From contig JAHPZA010000009.1 in NCBI GenBank assembly GCA_019058445.1, positions 582,410-646,409 of the forward strand: a DNA stretch of 64,000 nucleotides, in the 5' to 3' direction. Under the pieces are notes generated by a model, which was not told the origin of the DNA, searched no databases, and saw nothing but the letters and a program-made list of their open reading frames with translations. Source of the DNA: Promethearchaeota archaeon (lineage in GTDB: Archaea > Asgardarchaeota > Lokiarchaeia > Sigyniarchaeales > SOKP01). Position 1 is the first letter of the stretch, and each line of letters opens with the position of its first letter. Below, piece after piece: positions 21,468 through 34,532 of this stretch. The position numbers and the translations under genes are program-made.

Positions 21468-23903
21468 TCATTCTTCAAGCTCTTTAGCACATTTTCCAAT
21501 CGCAACAACTGAATCTCCCTCATAGAGGTTTATAACTCTGACCCCTTTAGCTTTTCGATGAGTTATCCTAATTGAATCGACCGGAACCCGAATCATTTGC
21601 CCTTGTTCGGACCCGATTAACAAATCTTTTTCTTTTGCTACCTTTATTGCGATAACTTCGTCGCTTTCATTTAGTGAAATATTGATAACACCCTTAGCCG
21701 CTCTACTCGTTTTTCTATACTCTTTAATAATTGTCCGTTGCCCATAACCATTCTTAGTAAGGGTTAGGACAATTTCATCGTCGGTAACGAGAAGACTGTC
21801 AATGATTTCATCACCCTTACGTAAATCCACTCCTTTTACTCCCATCGTATTTCTTCCGAGTTCTCTTAGCTCGGACTCATCAAAGCGGATTGCGTAACCT
21901 AATTTTGTAGCTATAAAAATATCTTGGAGCTCATTAGATAATTTTTTTACACTGACTAATTTATCATCAGGTCGTATCTTTTGGGCTCTCACTCCAGTCG
22001 TCTTGAATTTGGAAAAAAGTCTGAGGCTGCTTTTTTTTATGATTCCATTTTTTGTGGTTAAAATGAGCATTTCATTTGTGTTAAAGTTATTTATAGGAAT
22101 CATATCAGAAATTTCCTCATCTCCCTTTAGACTTAATAAATTCACAATTGGCTTTCCCTTGGCTGTTCTTTTTTGTAAGGGAATTTCAAAAGCTTTCATC
22201 GAATATACCCTTCCCTGTGAGGTAAAAAATAGTATGGTATCATGTGTAGAACATACAAACAAATCGGCTATGAAGTCTTCTTCGCCAACAGTCATCCCCT
22301 TTTTACCACGTCCTCCACGCCTTTGAGTTCTATATTCCTCTACCGACATCCGCTTTATATAATGGTTTTTAGTTAAAATGACGATTGTTGGCTCTTTTTT
22401 AACTAGGTCCTTTTTTTCTATATTTTTAACCTCTGTTAAATCCTCAATAATTTCTGTGCGTCTTTCATCTCCATATTTTTTACTTAACTCCGCCAATTCT
22501 GTTTTAATTATATCCAAACGTTCCTGTCTGTTTTTTAAAATTCTCTCATACTCCTTAATTTTTTTATTTAATTCTTTTTCTTCATCAATAAGTTTTTGTT
22601 GCTCTAAATTGGTCAATCGAGATAAGGGCATATTTAAAATTGCTTTTACTTGAATTTCAGATATTTCAAACCTATTCATTAATTTGGTCTTCGCATCATC
22701 AGTATCTTGTGCTTTTTTTATAATATTTACGACTTCATCAATATTATTTAATGCGATTATTAGCCCTTCGACTTTATGAAGCCTCTCTTGAGCTTTTAAA
22801 AGAGCATATTGAGTTCGTTTATAGACAATATCAAGTCGATGATTGATATATTCATCGATTAATTCCTTTAGGTTTAAAATTTTAGGCTGCTTTCCGTTAT
22901 TTATAAGAACTAAATTGATTACAGGAAAATTAGTTTCAAGTCTAGTCCGTGAAAATAAGATATTTTTTATAATTATAGGTTGAGCATTTTTTCTTAGCTC
23001 TAATACAATCCGCATACCTTTTCTGTCAGACTCATCTCTTAAGTCTCTAATATCTTTTAATACACCATCCTTAATGAGTTTTGCAATAGATTCTATTAGA
23101 GCAGTCTTGTTTATTAAATAGGGAATTTCGGTTATGATTAAACTATTATTTTTTCCTTTAGTCTCGACCTCAATTTTTCCTTTCATAGTTATAGTCCCTT
23201 GCCCAGTTGAATATGCATTGTATATCCCCGTCATATTTGTAATGATACCGCCAGTTGGAAAATCAGGCCCTTTTATAATTTCCATTAATTCTTCTATAGA
23301 GATATCCGGATTATCTATTGTTGCAATAATGCCCGTACATATCTCCATAAGGTTATGAGGGGGCATTGAGGTTGCCATCCCAACAGCAATCCCTTTAGTA
23401 CCATTAAGTAGAATATTAGGAAGTTTACTTGGTAAATAAATAGGTTCTACTGTACTATCATCAAAATTAGGGCGAAATTCTACAGTTTCTCTGTCAATAT
23501 CTTCAATTAACTCGTTTGCAATCTGAGAAAGTCTTGCCTCAGTATATCGATACGCTGCTGGAGGATCTCCATCAATCGAACCAAAATTTCCTTGGGGATC
23601 GATTAAAGGATATCTTAATGAAAAATCTTGAGCCATTCTTACGAGCGCGTTATAAACGGAGGAATCACCATGAGGATGAAAATTACCTAATGTCTCTCCT
23701 ACGATCTTAGCACATTTTACGTGTGAACTCGTATAATACCAGTTGTTATTCGCCATAGCGTAAATAATTCGACGATGGACATGCTTTAATCCATCCCTCA
23801 CATCAGGGATAGCTCTACCAATTACAACAGACATCGCATAATCTATGTAACTGGTTTTCATCTCATCTTTTAGTAAAATTTCTTGAATGTTTTCTGTTGT
23901 CAT
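21468..23903 (-). CDS. gyrA: DNA gyrase subunit A
   Basis: HPHGD, AAYRYTE, GyrA-box QRRGGRG, C-terminal pinwheel repeats. Confidence 0.97.
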   Translation of the reverse strand: MTTENIQEILLKDEMKTSYIDYAMSVVIGRAIPDVRDGLKHVHRRIIYAMANNNWYYTSSHVKCAKIVGETLGNFHPHGDSSVYNALVRMAQDFSLRYPLIDPQGNFGSIDGDPPAAYRYTEARLSQIANELIEDIDRETVEFRPNFDDSTVEPIYLPSKLPNILLNGTKGIAVGMATSMPPHNLMEICTGIIATIDNPDISIEELMEIIKGPDFPTGGIITNMTGIYNAYSTGQGTITMKGKIEVETKGKNNSLIITEIPYLINKTALIESIAKLIKDGVLKDIRDLRDESDRKGMRIVLELRKNAQPIIIKNILFSRTRLETNFPVINLVLINNGKQPKILNLKELIDEYINHRLDIVYKRTQYALLKAQERLHKVEGLIIALNNIDEVVNIIKKAQDTDDAKTKLMNRFEISEIQVKAILNMPLSRLTNLEQQKLIDEEKELNKKIKEYERILKNRQERLDIIKTELAELSKKYGDERRTEIIEDLTEVKNIEKKDLVKKEPTIVILTKNHYIKRMSVEEYRTQRRGGRGKKGMTVGEEDFIADLFVCSTHDTILFFTSQGRVYSMKAFEIPLQKRTAKGKPIVNLLSLKGDEEISDMIPINNFNTNEMLILTTKNGIIKKSSLRLFSKFKTTGVRAQKIRPDDKLVSVKKLSNELQDIFIATKLGYAIRFDESELRELGRNTMGVKGVDLRKGDEIIDSLLVTDDEIVLTLTKNGYGQRTIIKEYRKTSRAAKGVINISLNESDEVIAIKVAKEKDLLIGSEQGQMIRVPVDSIRITHRKAKGVRVINLYEGDSVVAIGKCAKELEE

Positions 23904-23945: not shown

Positions 23946-25988
23946 CTAAATATCTAATAGATTTACTTCATCATAATTTTCAATGACAAATTTCTTTCTC
24001 GGCAAAGACTCTCGACCCATCAATTTTGTAAAAATGAGGTCATTTTCTAAATAGTCTTCGTAGGTAATTTTCTTTAAAAAACGTGTGTCTCGGTTCATGG
24101 TTGTTTCATAAAGTTCATCAGGATTCATTTCACCTAATCCCTTATATCTCTGGACTTTAATAGAATCAGTCTTTTTTAAGGAATATTTCTTTATTAATTC
24201 TTGAAAAATTTTATCTTTTTCATTATCAGTGTATACATAATGCTTAGTCTTCTTATATTTAACTTGAAAAAGCGGAGGTACTGCCACATAAAGATGCCCC
24301 TCATCAATAAGAGGCCGCATATATCTAAAGAAAAATGTTAATAAGAGAGTTTTAATATGATGGCCATCTGAATCTGCATCGCAAAATATTATAATTTTGT
24401 GATAACGTAAATTTTTTAAATTAAAATCTTCTTCTCCCTCTCCATTTTCACCATTATGTTCAGATGTTCCATTAGTATCATTTACTCCTTGAATTCCAAT
24501 TCCAACTGCTTTAATTATAGCGAGGATCTCATTATTTTGTAATATTTTATCCATTCTTGCTTTTTCAACATTTAATATTTTTCCTCGGAGAGGAAGTATT
24601 GCTTGATAACTTCTATCTCTTCCTTGTTTGGCTGAACCACCTGCTGAATCGCCTTCTACAATAAATAATTCACATTCTTCGGGATTATTTGAAGAACAAT
24701 CAGCAAGTTTTCCGGGCATACGTGCACTATCTAATTCAGATTTTCTACGGATTAATGATCTAGCTTTTTGAGCTGCTTCCCTCGCCGTTTTAGCATTAAT
24801 GGTCTTTAATATGATCTTTTTGGCAGTCTGGGGATTTTCTTCAAAAAATTGATATAACTTTTCTGTAATTATTTGACTTACAAATTGTCGAATTTCAGGA
24901 TTTCCTAATTTAATTTTTGTTTGGCTCTCAAATTGAGGATCAGGAAGTTTAACAGAAATTACTGCCGATAATCCTTCCCGGGTATCACTTCCACTGAGCA
25001 CATGATCTTTATACTTTTTCTCCATATCCTTTTCGATGTAAGAATTCAAAGTTCGAGTGAGTGCTGATTTAAATCCAGTTAGGTGTGTACCACCCTCAAT
25101 GGTATTTATAGTATTTGCATATGTGAGAATATTAGATTGGTATCCTTGATTATATTGCAATGCGACATCCACATATACCTTAGAATCCTTTTCAAAAGGA
25201 TATTCATCGCTTAAAGAAATAATTTCATTATGCAGGGGCTTTTTATCTCTGTTAAGAAAAGTAATAAACTCCTTGAGTCCCCCTTCGTAATGAAATTCTT
25301 CCCCTTCTTCAGTATTTTCATTGTAGATTTCGAATTTTGCTTGAGGTGTTAAAAATCCAAGTTCTCGCATTCGACCTGCGATTGTAGAGAAGTTAAAAAT
25401 ATTATTCTCATCTTCTATATCAAAAATTTCCTTGTCTGGATAAAACGTAATTGCTGTACCTTTCTTTTTATTCTTAAGTTCTTTTATTTCCGGTTCTGTT
25501 GTTTTCACGCCTCTTGAAAACTTTTGCTTATAATACACATTATCTCTATAAATTTCTACTACTAACCATTCCGTTAATGCATTCACAACAGAAAGACCAA
25601 CGCCATGCAATCCACCGGAAATCTTATAACTTTTACTGTCAAATTTGCCTCCGCTATGTAGATGTTCCATAATCACTTCAACAGCAGGTTTTTTATATTC
25701 TGGATGCATGTCAATAGGTATTCCGCGCCCGTTGTCAGAAATCTGTACTGAATTATCTTTATTAAAAACAACTTCTATCTTATCTGCGAAGCCAGCCATG
25801 GCTTCATCAACACAATTATCAAGAACTTCAAAAATGAGATGGTGGAGACCTTTTTTTCCGGTATCGCCTATATACATTGCGGGTCTCTTTCTTTAGCGAT
25901 CTTCCATGATTTATGAAAGGTTTACGCCTTCGAGACCCTTTAAAACTTGTATATCTTCAGCATCATAACTATCGGGGGGGTCAGTCAT
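23946..25988 (-). CDS. gyrB: DNA gyrase subunit B in two exons (25988-25923 and 25892-23946; 670 aa if spliced)
   Basis: Exon 1 reads MTDPPDSYDAEDIQVLKGLEGV and exon 2 begins RKRPAMYIGD. EVLDNCVDE, GGLHGVG, EGDSAGG, PLRGK, DADSDG and RYKGLGEM are all intact. Confidence 0.95.
25893..25922 (-). other. Candidate 30-nt bulge-helix-bulge-type intron in gyrB mRNA
   Basis: Insert AACCUUUCAUAAAUCAUGGAAGAUCGCUAA has two in-frame UAA. A 4-bp helix GGCG/CGCU is followed by UA^A and AA^A, with an inner hairpin and an exon-exon stem GGGUCUC/GAGACCC. Confidence 0.85.
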
Positions 25989-26520
25989 GAAAATACTGTT
26001 ATTAGTTTTTTTTTGTAAAAGTAAAATAATTCAATTATTTCTGAAAATTTACGAATTTACTATATAATATAAGTAGTGCATACATTTATAAATTTGCTTC
26101 AATTTTTCATAAGCCAGAATGGTTATTTCATTTATCTTTTTAACCAGAATTATTAATATCTGGGGGAGCTAGGATATATTAGCGATATTTTAGAGATTAT
26201 TCGAGATTCTTGATTTACCAGTTATTTAATAAGAAATAGAAATATTCAAAAATATGGAAGATTTATTTATTCTTTCGTAATCTTTCAACCTTTTTTATTA
26301 TATAGTTAATCAAGTGTTTACATTGCATGCATTAATAATATAAATCCGTTATAAACGCATGTTTAAGCAAATATTATAATTTGGAATAATTTTATTCTTT
26401 AATATTAAATATTTTGGTATTTTTATCGTTCTCTTCTACATCACGTACTAAATCTAAAATTGAAATAATTAATAGCAATACCCCTACTAAATTTATAATT
26501 AGTAATTTAGAAGGAAATAG

Positions 26521-33782: not shown

Positions 33783-34532
33783 ATGGGTGAAATGGAAGAA
33801 GTAAAGCCAGGAGTAACTTGGCGCCATATTGTTGCTTTTGCTTTAGCCACAGGTGTGAGTACAGTTTTAGCGATATTTGCAGTAATAGTAGCTCCAGTAG
33901 CTCCCTTTCCAGGCGTTTCTGGCTTATATTTAGCTGCTGCAGTATATGTACCTCTGAGCTTATGGTTAGGGATTTGGGGAGTTCTCGCAGCATATATTTC
34001 ATGCGTCATTCTAGGCCTTGTAATTGGGTTAGGTCCATGGGCATTTGTATGGTCTCTTGCGGATTTAGTTGAGGGATTAATACCTCTCATAGCATTTAAG
34101 TTAACAAAAACAGATATTGATATTGGCAAAGATATGAAACGACCGGGGTTGTTATACGTGCTATTAGCAATTTTGGTAATTAATTTAATAATAGCTGCTA
34201 TTGCAACTGCCTTAGTAATTTCATGGTTATGGATCATAACTCTTATAATTGCTATTGCAATTATCGTTCTAATGTACGCAGTCAATCCATCTCGAGGATG
34301 GTTACTATTTATTATTTTCGGTATTATATTACCAGCTTTGTGTTCAGCTTTAATTGGAATCGGAGTGCTTGTTATAGCGGGTTTTGCTCCTGCTGAAGCT
34401 TTTTGGATAGGAGTAATTGGATGGTTCGCGGGCGATTTAATTGTACTTTCAGCAATTGCAACTCCAATGATGATTGTGTTAACAAAAAGAATTAAAGAAT
34501 CTTCCATATACGTGGAGAATTGGTTTTCATAG
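33783..34532 (+). CDS. ECF transporter substrate-binding (S) component, putative
   Basis: Highly hydrophobic; directly upstream of EcfT and the fused EcfA. Confidence 0.7.
   Translation: MGEMEEVKPGVTWRHIVAFALATGVSTVLAIFAVIVAPVAPFPGVSGLYLAAAVYVPLSLWLGIWGVLAAYISCVILGLVIGLGPWAFVWSLADLVEGLIPLIAFKLTKTDIDIGKDMKRPGLLYVLLAILVINLIIAAIATALVISWLWIITLIIAIAIIVLMYAVNPSRGWLLFIIFGIILPALCSALIGIGVLVIAGFAPAEAFWIGVIGWFAGDLIVLSAIATPMMIVLTKRIKESSIYVENWFS

What the first reader, a model, noticed from the sequence alone, without database searches (positions are those of the whole stretch)
25881..25988. Candidate tRNA-type (bulge-helix-bulge) intron in the gyrB mRNA of an Asgard archaeon
Seen: the minus strand from ATG 25988 reads MTDPPDSYDAEDIQVLKGLEGV-[AAC CTT TCA TAA ATC ATG GAA GAT CGC TAA]-RKRPAMYIGD. 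A 30-nt insert with two in-frame stops therefore splits the conserved GyrB motif I.VL.GLE.VRKRP.MYIG, while the rest of gyrB and gyrA look intact. The RNA can fold as follows: exon-1 GGCG pairs with insert CGCU (4-bp helix), and each strand is followed by 3 unpaired nt (UAA, AAA). The insert closes with A-U, one mismatch and CUUUCAU/AUGGAAG around an AAAUC loop. The exons close with GGGUCUC/GAGACCC beyond a purine-rich internal loop, so one side is relaxed (BHL-like). Known: the archaeal splicing endonuclease EndA cuts after the second nt of each 3-nt bulge. Cutting UA^A and AA^A removes exactly 25922-25893 and gives GGC GUA AGA AAG (G-V-R-K). Such introns are typical of tRNA/rRNA; in archaeal mRNA the classic case is crenarchaeal cbf5. 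Inference: EndA/RtcB-dependent mRNA splicing is required to make gyrase here. I know of no such case for gyrB or for Asgard archaea, but cannot search to confirm novelty.
Basis: partly seen in the sequence, partly recalled or inferred. Interest (0 to 1): 0.97.

Follow-up and report, generated by a model that had tools for sequence, protein, structure and literature searches.

The report
tRNA-type mini-intron splitting archaeal gyrB
The DNA gyrase B gene of this Asgard (Lokiarchaeia-type) archaeon is interrupted by a 30-base intron of the kind normally cut out of tRNAs, so its mRNA almost certainly has to be spliced before gyrase can be made, which was known before for only one archaeal protein gene (cbf5).

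Summary
On the minus strand, 30 nt (25922..25893) carrying two in-frame TAA codons split the GyrB motif GLEGV|RKRPAMYIGD.

The insert is not an artefact or a sign of gene decay. An intron sits at exactly this site in 18 distinct sequences from independent assemblies (30 nt x11, 31 nt x2, 53 nt x5). The hairpin sequence differs between them, but the structure is kept through compensatory changes. In all 18, cutting after the second base of each bulge restores the frame and the motif, although 7 have lengths not divisible by 3. Exon 1, and the 15 nt between the intron and the next ATG, both evolve as coding sequence.

The most likely mechanism is cleavage by the archaeal splicing endonuclease (EndA) and ligation by RtcB, on a relaxed (HBh'-type) motif. 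No RNA data exist. The catalytic EndA subunit is missing from this 92.6%-complete assembly, but is present in relatives that carry the intron.

The closest known case is the crenarchaeal cbf5 pre-mRNA intron. I found no report of such introns for gyrB or for Asgard mRNAs.

The scan had already noted similar mini-introns in other genes of this same genome. I checked EF-2, a GH38 gene, an acyl-CoA ligase and a chlD-type gene myself.

The parts
25923..25988 (-). gyrB exon 1 (22 codons, MTDPPDSYDAEDIQVLKGLEGV): the N-terminal arm of GyrB
   Evidence: The last 15 codons are conserved in 18 intron-bearing sequences. 13 of 16 variable sites are third codon positions, and synonymous to nonsynonymous codon differences are 738:136. 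The segment aligns without a gap to the N-terminus of solved GyrB structures through the intron-less homologue P0005.
25893..25922 (-). 30-nt intron with two in-frame TAA codons, predicted to be excised, probably as a small circle
   Evidence: Present at the same site in 18 distinct sequences. No other copy of this sequence occurs in the genome, allowing up to 7 mismatches.
23946..25892 (-). gyrB exon 2 (RKRPA + MYIGD... to the stop codon). Gene callers start it at ATG 25877
   Evidence: HATPase_c, DNA_gyraseB, Toprim, DNA_gyraseB_C. The 15 nt 25892..25878 upstream of the ATG evolve as codons R-[KRLF]-R-P-[AS], with synonymous to nonsynonymous differences of 350:98.
25925..25928 (-). Central helix, 5' strand GGCG (in exon 1)
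   Evidence: 100% paired in 11 sequences. GGC GTA is invariant in all intron-bearing genes, whereas intron-less relatives vary at these synonymous sites.
25922..25924 (-). 5' bulge UAA; predicted cut UA^A between 25923 and 25922
   Evidence: It is a strict 3-nt bulge between the central helix and the inner hairpin. It reads TAA or TTA in all 18 sequences.
25899..25921 (-). Inner hairpin h' (23 nt: A-U, one C/A mismatch, a 7-bp stem, loop AAAUC)
   Evidence: Four of its 9 pairs show changes on both sides among relatives. The sequence is entirely different in G006, but the 23-nt hairpin is kept.
25895..25898 (-). Central helix, 3' strand CGCU (in the intron)
   Evidence: Relatives have CGCT, CGTC, CGTT or CGCC, and all of these pair with GGCG through G-C or G-U.
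25892..25894 (-). 3' splice-site triplet AAA; predicted cut AA^A between 25893 and 25892. It lies in a 7-nt by 3-nt internal loop (relaxed)
   Evidence: The triplet is AAA, ACA, AGA or AGC in relatives, and its third base is always the first base of the Arg codon.
25932..25938 (-). Outer helix, 5' strand GGGUCUC (exon 1, Gly-Leu codons)
   Evidence: 92% of cells paired. Compensatory synonymous changes occur (CTC with AAG versus CTT with AAA; GGT..AGA versus GGG..CGC). On average 6.4 of 7 pairs form in the five intron-bearing relative genomes, against 4.4 of 7 in intron-less genes.
25881..25887 (-). Outer helix, 3' strand GAGACCC (exon 2, Lys-Arg-Pro codons)
26014..26026 (-). Conserved T-rich box TTTTACTTTTACA, 26 nt upstream of ATG 25988: a candidate promoter (TATA-like) element
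   Evidence: A similar box (TTTAC[CT]TTTAC) lies at about the same distance upstream of exon 1 in both intron-bearing and intron-less relatives. That it is a promoter is inference.
21468..23903 (-). gyrA, intact, immediately downstream
   Evidence: DNA_topoisoIV plus six GyrA C-terminal blades.

Best explanation
The 30 nt at 25922..25893 are a tRNA-type intron in the gyrB pre-mRNA, with a relaxed bulge-helix-bulge motif of the HBh' kind.

Proposed mechanism:
1. The transcript starts upstream of ATG 25988.
2. Exon bases GGCG pair with intron bases CGCU to form the 4-bp central helix.
3. The 5' splice site sits in a strict 3-nt bulge (UA^A) next to a 23-nt intron hairpin.
4. The 3' splice site (AA^A) sits in a purine-rich internal loop closed by an exon-exon helix.
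5. The heteromeric (alpha-beta)2 archaeal splicing endonuclease EndA cuts both sites, and RtcB joins the exons.
6. The product reads GGC GUA|AGA AAG, so one ORF encodes full-length GyrB (669 aa) with its N-terminal arm.

Shown here: the insert, the structure, its conservation with covariation, the exact restoration of the frame, coding selection on both exons, and the presence of RtcB and of an EndA subunit.

Inferred: that splicing happens, and that EndA and RtcB carry it out.
For: 1. Real DNA. An intron occupies the same site in five genomes of the genus. It is also found in further metagenome contigs and MAGs. That makes 18 distinct sequences.

2. Structure rather than sequence is conserved. 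On 11 sequences, 90.9% of cells are paired and 7 pairs have changes on both sides. No shuffle out of 500 reaches the observed values, and slid controls reach only 30-54% paired. The 53-nt class keeps the same core plus an extra GC hairpin.

3. Cutting after the second base of each bulge restores GLEGV|R[KRLF]RP in 18 of 18 sequences. This includes 7 introns of 31 or 53 nt, which would otherwise shift the frame.

4. Coding selection on both sides. Exon 1 has synonymous to nonsynonymous differences of 738:136. The 15 nt between the intron and the next ATG have 350:98, although an in-frame TAA directly precedes them.

5. An intron-less allele, P0005, has the identical exon-1 peptide joined directly to RKRPAMYIGD. 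This junction is contiguous in solved GyrB structures.

6. gyrB is single-copy and otherwise intact, as is gyrA.

7. Enzymes. RtcB is present and an EndA family protein is present. Relatives that carry the intron have a catalytic EndA alpha subunit with the Tyr/His/Lys triad and the crenarchaeal-type loop. Published work ties this type of EndA to relaxed motifs and to cbf5 mRNA splicing (PMC5829648, PMC2738675).

8. The same 30-nt architecture interrupts other genes of this genome: EF-2, a GH38 gene, an acyl-CoA ligase and a chlD-type gene. It also interrupts its tRNA genes.
Against: - There are no RNA data of any kind, so splicing itself is not shown.
- The 3' splice site is not in a canonical 3-nt bulge. 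It lies in a 7x3 internal loop, so cleavage there depends on a broad-specificity enzyme.
- The only EndA gene found in this assembly has Phe and Ser at the catalytic Tyr and His positions, so it looks like the structural beta subunit. The catalytic alpha subunit was not found in this assembly with three different queries. The assembly is 92.6% complete.
- An in-frame ATG at 25877 could in principle give an N-terminally truncated GyrB without any splicing.
Confidence: 0.87

Rival explanations
1. Split or shortened gene. GyrB is translated from ATG 25877 (MYIGD...) without splicing. The 25-residue exon-1 product is either a separate micro-peptide or is dispensable.
For: ATG 25877 is in frame and opens an uninterrupted 643-aa ORF with all catalytic domains. 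Gene callers annotate the gene this way in many MAGs.
Against: - The 15 nt upstream of that ATG evolve as codons R-K/R-R-P-A (350 synonymous versus 98 nonsynonymous differences). An in-frame TAA directly precedes them, so they can only be translated after joining to exon 1.
- This model does not explain the covariation in three helices, including synonymous exon sites.
- The candidate promoter box lies upstream of exon 1 in both intron-bearing and intron-less genes.
- From general knowledge of GyrB structures, the N-terminal arm contacts the partner protomer's ATP site. I did not test this here.
Confidence: 0.05
2. Excision by an RNA-processing route other than EndA and RtcB. An unknown nuclease and ligase pair would recognise the same hairpin.
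For: The catalytic EndA subunit is not in this assembly. The 3' site is non-canonical.
Against: - The geometry fits EndA: a 4-bp helix, a 3-nt bulge, and cuts after the second bulge base. This restores the frame in 18 of 18 sequences.
- Relatives that carry the intron encode a complete alpha subunit.
- The tRNA genes of the same genome carry inserts of about 30 nt.
Confidence: 0.04
3. Translational recoding: ribosomes bypass the 30 nt (as in phage T4 gene 60) or read through both stop codons.
For: The bypassed gene in T4 is also a type II topoisomerase subunit. The insert contains a stable hairpin and a stop codon soon after the break.
Against: - There are no matching take-off and landing codons. 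GUA is followed at the 3' end by CGC UAA, CGU CAA, CGU UAC and similar.
- Insert lengths of 30, 31 and 53 nt, with unrelated sequences, all resolve to the same junction only under the BHB cut rule.
- Read-through is impossible for the 31-nt and 53-nt forms, and it would insert 10 variable residues into an invariant motif.
Confidence: 0.02
4. Assembly or sequencing artefact, or a decaying pseudogene.
For: The source is a metagenome-type assembly in 10 contigs, and the insert carries stop codons.
Against: - The same site is occupied in 18 sequences from independent assemblies and samples.
- gyrB is single-copy and has no other lesion.
- Purifying selection acts on both exons.
- The intron sequence is unique in the genome.
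Confidence: 0.01

Closest known systems
cbf5 pre-mRNA intron of Crenarchaeota (Watanabe et al. 2002; Yoshinari et al. 2006; Yokobori et al. 2009, PMC2738675)
   Same: - A short intron inside the coding region of an archaeal protein gene.
- BHB-like exon-intron boundaries, often relaxed.
- Dependence on the hetero-oligomeric EndA with the crenarchaeal-type loop.
- A patchy distribution implying gain and loss. For gyrB the tree needs at least 3 changes.
   Different: - A different gene: gyrB, which from general knowledge is of bacterial origin in archaea, so the intron would have been gained after the transfer.
- A different phylum: Asgard / Promethearchaeota.
- A very uniform mini-intron size (30-31 nt, with a 53-nt derivative).
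- In this genome it is one of several interrupted protein genes, not a single case.
- Splicing of cbf5 was shown experimentally. For gyrB it is only inferred.
Archaeal tRNA and rRNA BHB introns, including non-canonical HBh' and BHL forms (Marck and Grosjean 2003; PMC5829648)
   Same: - A 4-bp central helix and a 3-nt bulge, with cleavage after the second bulge base.
- A relaxed second site, tolerated by (alpha-beta)2 EndA carrying the L1/CSL loop.
- tRNA genes of this genome carry inserts of about 30 nt.
   Different: - The host RNA is an mRNA. The exon strands of the helices must also encode protein, and the compensatory changes fall at synonymous sites.
- No tRNA body is available to help recognition.
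BHB intron in the 5' UTR of HVO_1309 mRNA in Haloferax volcanii (PMC7714728)
   Same: An mRNA substrate of the archaeal splicing endonuclease.
   Different: That intron lies in the untranslated leader, so the reading frame does not depend on it. Here the coding sequence is interrupted.
IRE1/RtcB splicing of HAC1 and XBP1 mRNA in eukaryotes
   Same: Spliceosome-independent removal of a short mRNA intron by a protein endonuclease that cuts at structured sites, followed by ligation (RtcB in metazoa). Excision changes the translated product.
   Different: A different endonuclease family and a different recognition motif (twin stem-loops, not BHB). It is regulated by stress, and no regulation is known here.
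Translational bypass in phage T4 gene 60 (topoisomerase subunit)
   Same: A short untranslated gap with a hairpin and a stop codon inside a type II topoisomerase B-type gene.
   Different: Bypass needs matched take-off and landing codons and happens on the ribosome. Neither condition fits here.

Membership tests
Archaeal BHB-type (EndA-spliced) intron | 4-bp central helix formed at the exon-intron boundaries | tested here: met
   GGCG/CGCU appears in the MFE fold. It is 100% paired in 11 sequences, with G-C to G-U changes on the intron strand. It is also kept in the 53-nt class.
Archaeal BHB-type (EndA-spliced) intron | Two 3-nt bulges on opposite strands, each 3' of its central-helix strand, each flanked by a helix (strict hBHBh') | tested here: not met
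   The 5' bulge UAA is strict. The 3' site lies in a 7-nt by 3-nt internal loop before the outer helix (5x2 in the 53-nt class). The motif is therefore the relaxed HBh'/BHL form, not the strict one. Per PMC5829648, such forms are substrates of (alpha-beta)2 and epsilon2 EndA.
Archaeal BHB-type (EndA-spliced) intron | Cleavage after the second base of each bulge yields a functional product | tested here: met
   The predicted cuts restore GLEGV|R[KRLF]RP and the reading frame in 18 of 18 sequences, including 31-nt and 53-nt introns. The product matches the intron-less allele P0005 and solved GyrB structures.
Archaeal BHB-type (EndA-spliced) intron | Structure maintained by compensatory change | tested here: met
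   7 pairs have changes on both sides, the covariation score is 0.281 against 0.154 for shuffles (0 of 500 reach it), and slid controls score 0.06-0.10. Searches agree.
Archaeal BHB-type (EndA-spliced) intron | Host encodes catalytic EndA and the RtcB ligase | tested here: inconclusive
   RtcB is present. The one EndA-family gene has Phe and Ser at the catalytic Tyr and His positions, so it is beta-like. The alpha subunit was not found in this 92.6%-complete assembly. It is present in 23 of 24 relatives, including the intron-bearing G002, G003, G006 and G007. An intact Tyr/His/Lys triad was read only in the alpha of G003.
Archaeal BHB-type (EndA-spliced) intron | Spliced RNA and excised (circular) intron observed | not testable with these tools
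cbf5-type archaeal pre-mRNA intron | Intron within the coding region of a protein gene, in an organism with a hetero-oligomeric EndA bearing the crenarchaeal-type (CSL/L1) loop | tested here: met
   The coding region is interrupted. Relatives have two EndA genes, alpha and beta. The alpha subunit aligns without gaps to the A. pernix alpha through the loop PLGINKPR.... PMC5829648 reports the same for Asgard.
Programmed translational bypass (T4 gene 60 type) | Identical take-off and landing codons flanking the gap | tested here: not met
   The take-off codon would be GUA or GGC. No matching codon precedes exon 2 in any of the 18 sequences.
Self-splicing group I / group II intron | Ribozyme core detectable; size of hundreds of nt | tested here: not met
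   No Rfam family matches in the window. The insert is 30 nt.
Repeated mobile insertion (MITE-like) with target-site duplication | Multiple copies in the genome and conserved flanking direct repeats | tested here: not met
   No second copy with up to 7 mismatches. The TAAA...TAAA repeat seen here is not kept in relatives, which have CAAA or TACA.

The most novel reading that the evidence does not exclude
gyrB may be one visible member of a whole population of EndA-type mini-introns (about 30 nt) spread through ordinary and essential protein genes of Lokiarchaeia-type Asgard archaea. I checked gyrB, EF-2, a GH38 gene, an acyl-CoA ligase and a chlD-type gene myself, and other scan notes add acs and more.

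On this reading, enzymatic mRNA splicing would be a routine and obligatory step of gene expression in prokaryotic relatives of eukaryotes. Introns would be gained (here in a gene of bacterial origin), would slide, and would be lost on short time scales. The cell would then also need some way to keep ribosomes off unspliced transcripts, or to tolerate them.
Probability: 0.6. Interest if true: 0.92.

Novelty: new member of a known kind. Interest (0 to 1): 0.85.

Why it matters
1. Until now, coding-region introns of the tRNA type in archaeal mRNAs were documented only for cbf5 in Crenarchaeota (PMC2738675, PMC7714728). A second gene, which is information-processing and probably essential, in a different phylum shows that this route is not a one-gene curiosity.

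2. The phylum is Asgard, the closest known archaeal relatives of eukaryotes. Several other protein genes in the same genome carry the same mini-intron. That makes the question of whether these archaea splice mRNAs routinely directly testable by RT-PCR or RNA-seq.

3. From general knowledge, gyrase in archaea is of bacterial origin. If so, this intron was gained after transfer, which would be a clear case of de novo intron gain. The tree also indicates repeated loss or gain (at least 3 events).

4. There is a practical consequence for annotation. 27 of the 120 nearest GyrB protein clusters in public data start at MYIGD or at an ATG inside the intron. Many database entries for Asgard GyrB are therefore N-terminally truncated or carry spurious residues. 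BHB-aware gene calling is needed for these genomes.

Tried and rejected
- Ab initio census of such introns in the genome. This used the structure motif plus the test of whether excision joins two ORFs.
  - With strict settings, the true topology beats a mirrored decoy only at exactly 30 nt: 11 versus 2 hits, or 5 versus 0 under a stricter ORF rule.
  - With relaxed settings, noise swamps the signal: 3562 versus 3337 hits.
  - I therefore give no genome-wide number. The strict scan also misses real cases, such as chlD.
- A second motif hit inside this window, near 34031. It lies within an uninterrupted 249-aa ORF in another frame and is a false positive.
- The target-site duplication / MITE idea (TAAA repeats). 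The repeats are not conserved and no other copies exist.
- A weak second EndA-like match at C3:126738. It falls inside a methyltransferase-like ORF and is spurious.
- Search for EndA alpha in the own genome with Pfam PF01974 at E up to 10, with the G003 alpha protein, and with tblastn at word size 2. Only the beta-like gene was found.
- DNA of the intron-less allele P0005. It could not be fetched because the sample file is too large, so I cannot show its junction at the nucleotide level.
- ARAGORN on the genome. It found only 23 tRNA calls, many dubious. Rfam tRNA gave 16. tRNA genes here are probably too fragmented by introns for these tools.
- Rfam on the window: no family matched.
- Literature searches for Asgard or Lokiarchaeia mRNA BHB introns. 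Nothing was found in the held library. This does not prove that nothing has been published elsewhere.
Full report
**1. The observation**

On the minus strand the sequence from ATG 25988 reads MTDPPDSYDAEDIQVLKGLEGV, then 30 nt (25922..25893) with two in-frame TAA codons, then RKRPAMYIGD. The only long ORF that a gene caller can find starts at ATG 25877, the Met of MYIGD. It is 643 aa long and has the HATPase_c, DNA_gyraseB, Toprim and GyrB C-terminal domains. gyrA follows intact.

- an outer helix GGGUCUC/GAGACCC;
- a 3-nt (GAA) by 7-nt internal loop;
- a 4-bp helix GGCG/CGCU;
- a 3-nt bulge UAA;
- an inner hairpin with a 5-nt loop.

The energy is -20.7 kcal/mol, z = -3.1. A strict version of this motif occurs about 1.4e-4 times per position and length in this AT-rich genome. 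Finding it in the one register that restores the reading frame is therefore not expected by chance.

**2. Is it real DNA, and is the gene alive?**

The genome holds a single gyrB. I searched 40 related genomes with the downstream part of the protein. The four closest relatives, and one more of the same genus, have an insert at exactly the same place. The other four genomes of the genus in which gyrB was found (it was not found in G009), and all other genera sampled, have an uninterrupted GLEGVR(K/R)RP.

A pattern scan of public genomes and metagenomes, and a look at the DNA behind public GyrB proteins that begin at MYIGD, added more cases. In all there are 18 distinct intron-bearing sequences from independent assemblies. 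Eleven introns are 30 nt long, two are 31 nt and five are 53 nt.

Of the 120 nearest GyrB protein clusters, 27 start at MYIGD (MYVGS in one) or at an ATG that lies inside the intron. All 8 whose DNA I fetched carry the intron. An assembly artefact or a private pseudogene is therefore excluded.

**3. Structure is conserved, sequence is not**

The inner hairpin differs freely between lineages. In G006 it is an unrelated sequence of the same 23-nt length. It stays a hairpin throughout.

The intron strand of the central helix is CGCT, CGTC, CGTT or CGCC, and every one of these pairs with the invariant exon strand GGCG.

On an 11-sequence alignment, 90.9% of cells form standard pairs, and 7 of 20 pairs show changes on both sides. 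None of 500 column shuffles reaches the observed values. Sliding the partners by 1-3 columns drops pairing to 30-54%.

The outer helix is made only of exon bases, yet it covaries at synonymous sites: Leu CTC pairs with Lys AAG, Leu CTT pairs with Lys AAA, and Gly GGT..Arg AGA alternates with GGG..CGC. On average 6.4 of 7 of these pairs form in intron-bearing genes, against 4.4 of 7 in intron-less ones.

The 53-nt class keeps the same central helix, bulge and closing stem, and adds a GC-rich hairpin that itself covaries.

**4. The cut rule predicts the protein**

The archaeal splicing endonuclease cuts after the second base of each 3-nt bulge. This is established knowledge, and it agrees with the 37/38 tRNA intron geometry.

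Applied to each of the 18 sequences, the rule removes 30, 31 or 53 nt and always yields GLEGV|R[KRLF]RP[AS]MY in frame. Seven of these introns have lengths not divisible by three. Stop-codon read-through, or an in-frame insertion, therefore cannot explain them.

A public intron-less allele (P0005, 670 aa) has the identical exon-1 peptide fused directly to RKRPAMYIGD. That segment aligns without a gap to Thermus GyrB crystal structures.

**5. Both exons are translated in the spliced frame**

Among the 18 sequences, 13 of 16 variable sites in the last 45 nt of exon 1 are third codon positions. Synonymous codon differences outnumber nonsynonymous ones 738:136.

The 15 nt between the intron and ATG 25877 behave the same way (350:98). 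Arg switches between AGA, AGG, CGC and CGT, while the peptide stays R-K/R-R-P-A.

In this window an in-frame TAA lies immediately upstream of these five codons. They can only be translated if they are joined to exon 1. This is the main argument against the alternative that the gene simply starts at MYIGD.

A conserved T-rich box lies about 26 nt upstream of the exon-1 ATG in intron-bearing and intron-less genes alike. This suggests that transcription and translation start at exon 1. That last step is inference.

**6. The enzymes**

RtcB is present. The one EndA-family gene in this assembly (202 aa, both Pfam domains) has Phe and Ser where M. jannaschii EndA has the catalytic Tyr115 and His125, and it keeps the Lys. 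It therefore looks like the structural beta subunit.

Related genomes mostly have two EndA genes. The stronger hit, read in full for G003, has the Tyr/His/Lys triad. It aligns best, and without gaps through the crenarchaeal-specific loop, to the alpha subunits of Aeropyrum, Sulfolobus and Pyrobaculum. The intron-bearing relatives G002, G003, G006 and G007 all have the strong alpha-type hit.

In the present assembly I could not find the alpha gene with three queries. The assembly is 92.6% complete and in 10 contigs, so I read this as not assembled rather than absent, but it is a gap in the evidence.

Published work reports the (alpha-beta)2 EndA with this loop for Asgard archaea and links it to cleavage of relaxed motifs (PMC5829648). 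It also links it to cbf5 pre-mRNA splicing (PMC2738675).

The gyrB motif is relaxed on the 3' side only (the HBh' form). According to PMC5829648, even the constrained M. kandleri enzyme handles that form.

**7. Context in the genome**

The same architecture (a 4-bp helix, 3-nt bulges, a 23-nt hairpin, 30 nt removed) interrupts other protein genes of this genome:
- EF-2, at the switch-I region;
- a GH38 gene;
- an acyl-CoA ligase;
- a chlD/chlI-type gene.

For EF-2, the intron is present at the same site in one other genome (G021), with compensatory hairpin changes. In G006 it lies 6 nt further downstream. It is absent from G003 and G007, which do carry the gyrB intron. Each intron thus has its own patchy history.

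The gyrB tree needs at least three gains or losses. It places an intron-less gene (G004) as the close sister of an intron-bearing one (G006).

tRNA genes are hard to detect here. There are only 16 Rfam matches, and many of them are about 102 nt long, which corresponds to a tRNA with a 30-nt insert. This fits published reports of very intron-rich tRNA genes in other Asgard lineages (PMC11291895).

Earlier notes of this scan had already flagged several of these mRNA introns in the same genome. I used them as leads and re-checked EF-2, GH38 and chlD myself.

**8. Rivals**

- A gene that starts at MYIGD (about 5%) fails on point 5 and does not explain the covariation.
- Ribosomal bypass as in T4 gene 60 (about 2%) lacks matched take-off and landing codons and cannot account for three intron lengths resolving to one junction.
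- Another, unknown nuclease (about 4%) cannot be excluded without biochemistry, but the geometry is that of EndA.
- An artefact or pseudogene (about 1%) is excluded by point 2.
- A repeated mobile insertion is excluded. The sequence is unique in the genome and the flanking TAAA repeat is not conserved.

**9. Comparison and novelty**

The closest known case is the cbf5 intron of Desulfurococcales and Sulfolobales. It shares the mechanism class, the relaxed motifs, the enzyme type and the gain-and-loss pattern. As late as 2020, cbf5 was cited as the only coding-region example, alongside one 5'-UTR case in Haloferax (PMC7714728).

I found nothing in the held literature on such introns in gyrB or in Asgard mRNAs.

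I therefore file the gyrB intron as a new member of a known kind. Strict hBHBh' membership is not met, since the 3' site is relaxed. Membership of the relaxed BHB class is met on every feature I could test, apart from the presence of catalytic EndA in this assembly, which stayed inconclusive.

What would be more than a new member is the apparent multiplicity of such introns in ordinary protein genes of this lineage.

**10. Verdict**

Confidence is 0.87 that this is an EndA/RtcB-type mRNA intron. The missing piece is RNA evidence.

Noticed in passing
G000 C10:684116-684145 (minus strand; L056:2117-2146); relatives L081 (G021) and L068 (G006): The EF-2 gene is interrupted by a 30-nt BHB mini-intron in the switch-I region (QMTD|SDDEEQERGITI). 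G021 has it at the same site with compensatory hairpin changes. In G006 an intron sits 6 nt further downstream, between near-repeated exon hexamers (ACAGAT/TCAGAT). This could be intron sliding or a second insertion.
   Followed up: partly
G000 C9:770313-770918 (L001:1219-1827, plus strand): The only EndA-family gene in this assembly has Phe and Ser at the catalytic Tyr and His positions, so it is the beta-like structural subunit. The catalytic alpha gene, present in 23 of 24 relatives, was not found in this assembly.
   Followed up: yes
G000 whole genome, e.g. C6:1204321-1204422, C1:129711-129812, C2:114737-114874: Only 16 Rfam tRNA matches occur in a 4.6-Mb genome, and many are about 102 nt long or more. 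These are tRNA genes with inserts of about 30 nt, some at non-canonical positions. One insert, in C2:114737-114874, ends ...ATGGAAAACGCTAAA, which resembles the 3' end of the gyrB intron. Standard tRNA finders probably miss most tRNA genes here.
   Followed up: partly
G000 C9:6926-6955 (plus strand), C6:862879-862908 (minus strand), C9 about 269045-269086 (minus strand): Further 30-nt BHB mini-introns interrupt a GH38 gene (HWDRE|WYLTFNEF), an acyl-CoA ligase (YFGWTQIL|IPNPRD) and a chlD/chlI-type gene (MNPEE|GELRPQ). My strict motif scan missed the chlD case.
   Followed up: partly
Public proteins P0003, P0004, P0119: Gene callers start some relatives' GyrB at an ATG inside the intron hairpin, giving spurious N-termini such as MRSRQ-RKRPAMYIGD. 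Many others are annotated from MYIGD. This is a systematic misannotation of Asgard gyrB.
   Followed up: partly
Relatives: P0033 and P0034 (GyrB of 1085-1097 aa); gyrA in L113 (1261 aa): Some related gyrB and gyrA genes carry inteins (Pfam Intein_splicing, LAGLIDADG). The gyrase genes of this group are thus interrupted at both the RNA and the protein level in different lineages.
   Followed up: no
G000 C9:582310-582409: A run of 100 N (a scaffold gap) lies immediately before the start of the window.
   Followed up: no
L106, L107, L111, L112, L113 (upstream of the called gyrB start): In more distant lineages (GyrB about 70-73% identical) the intron at the same site is 53 nt long. It keeps the same BHB core and closing stem ACTCA/TGAGT, has a hairpin like that of the 30-nt class, and adds a GC-rich hairpin, which gives a small three-way junction.
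   Followed up: partly
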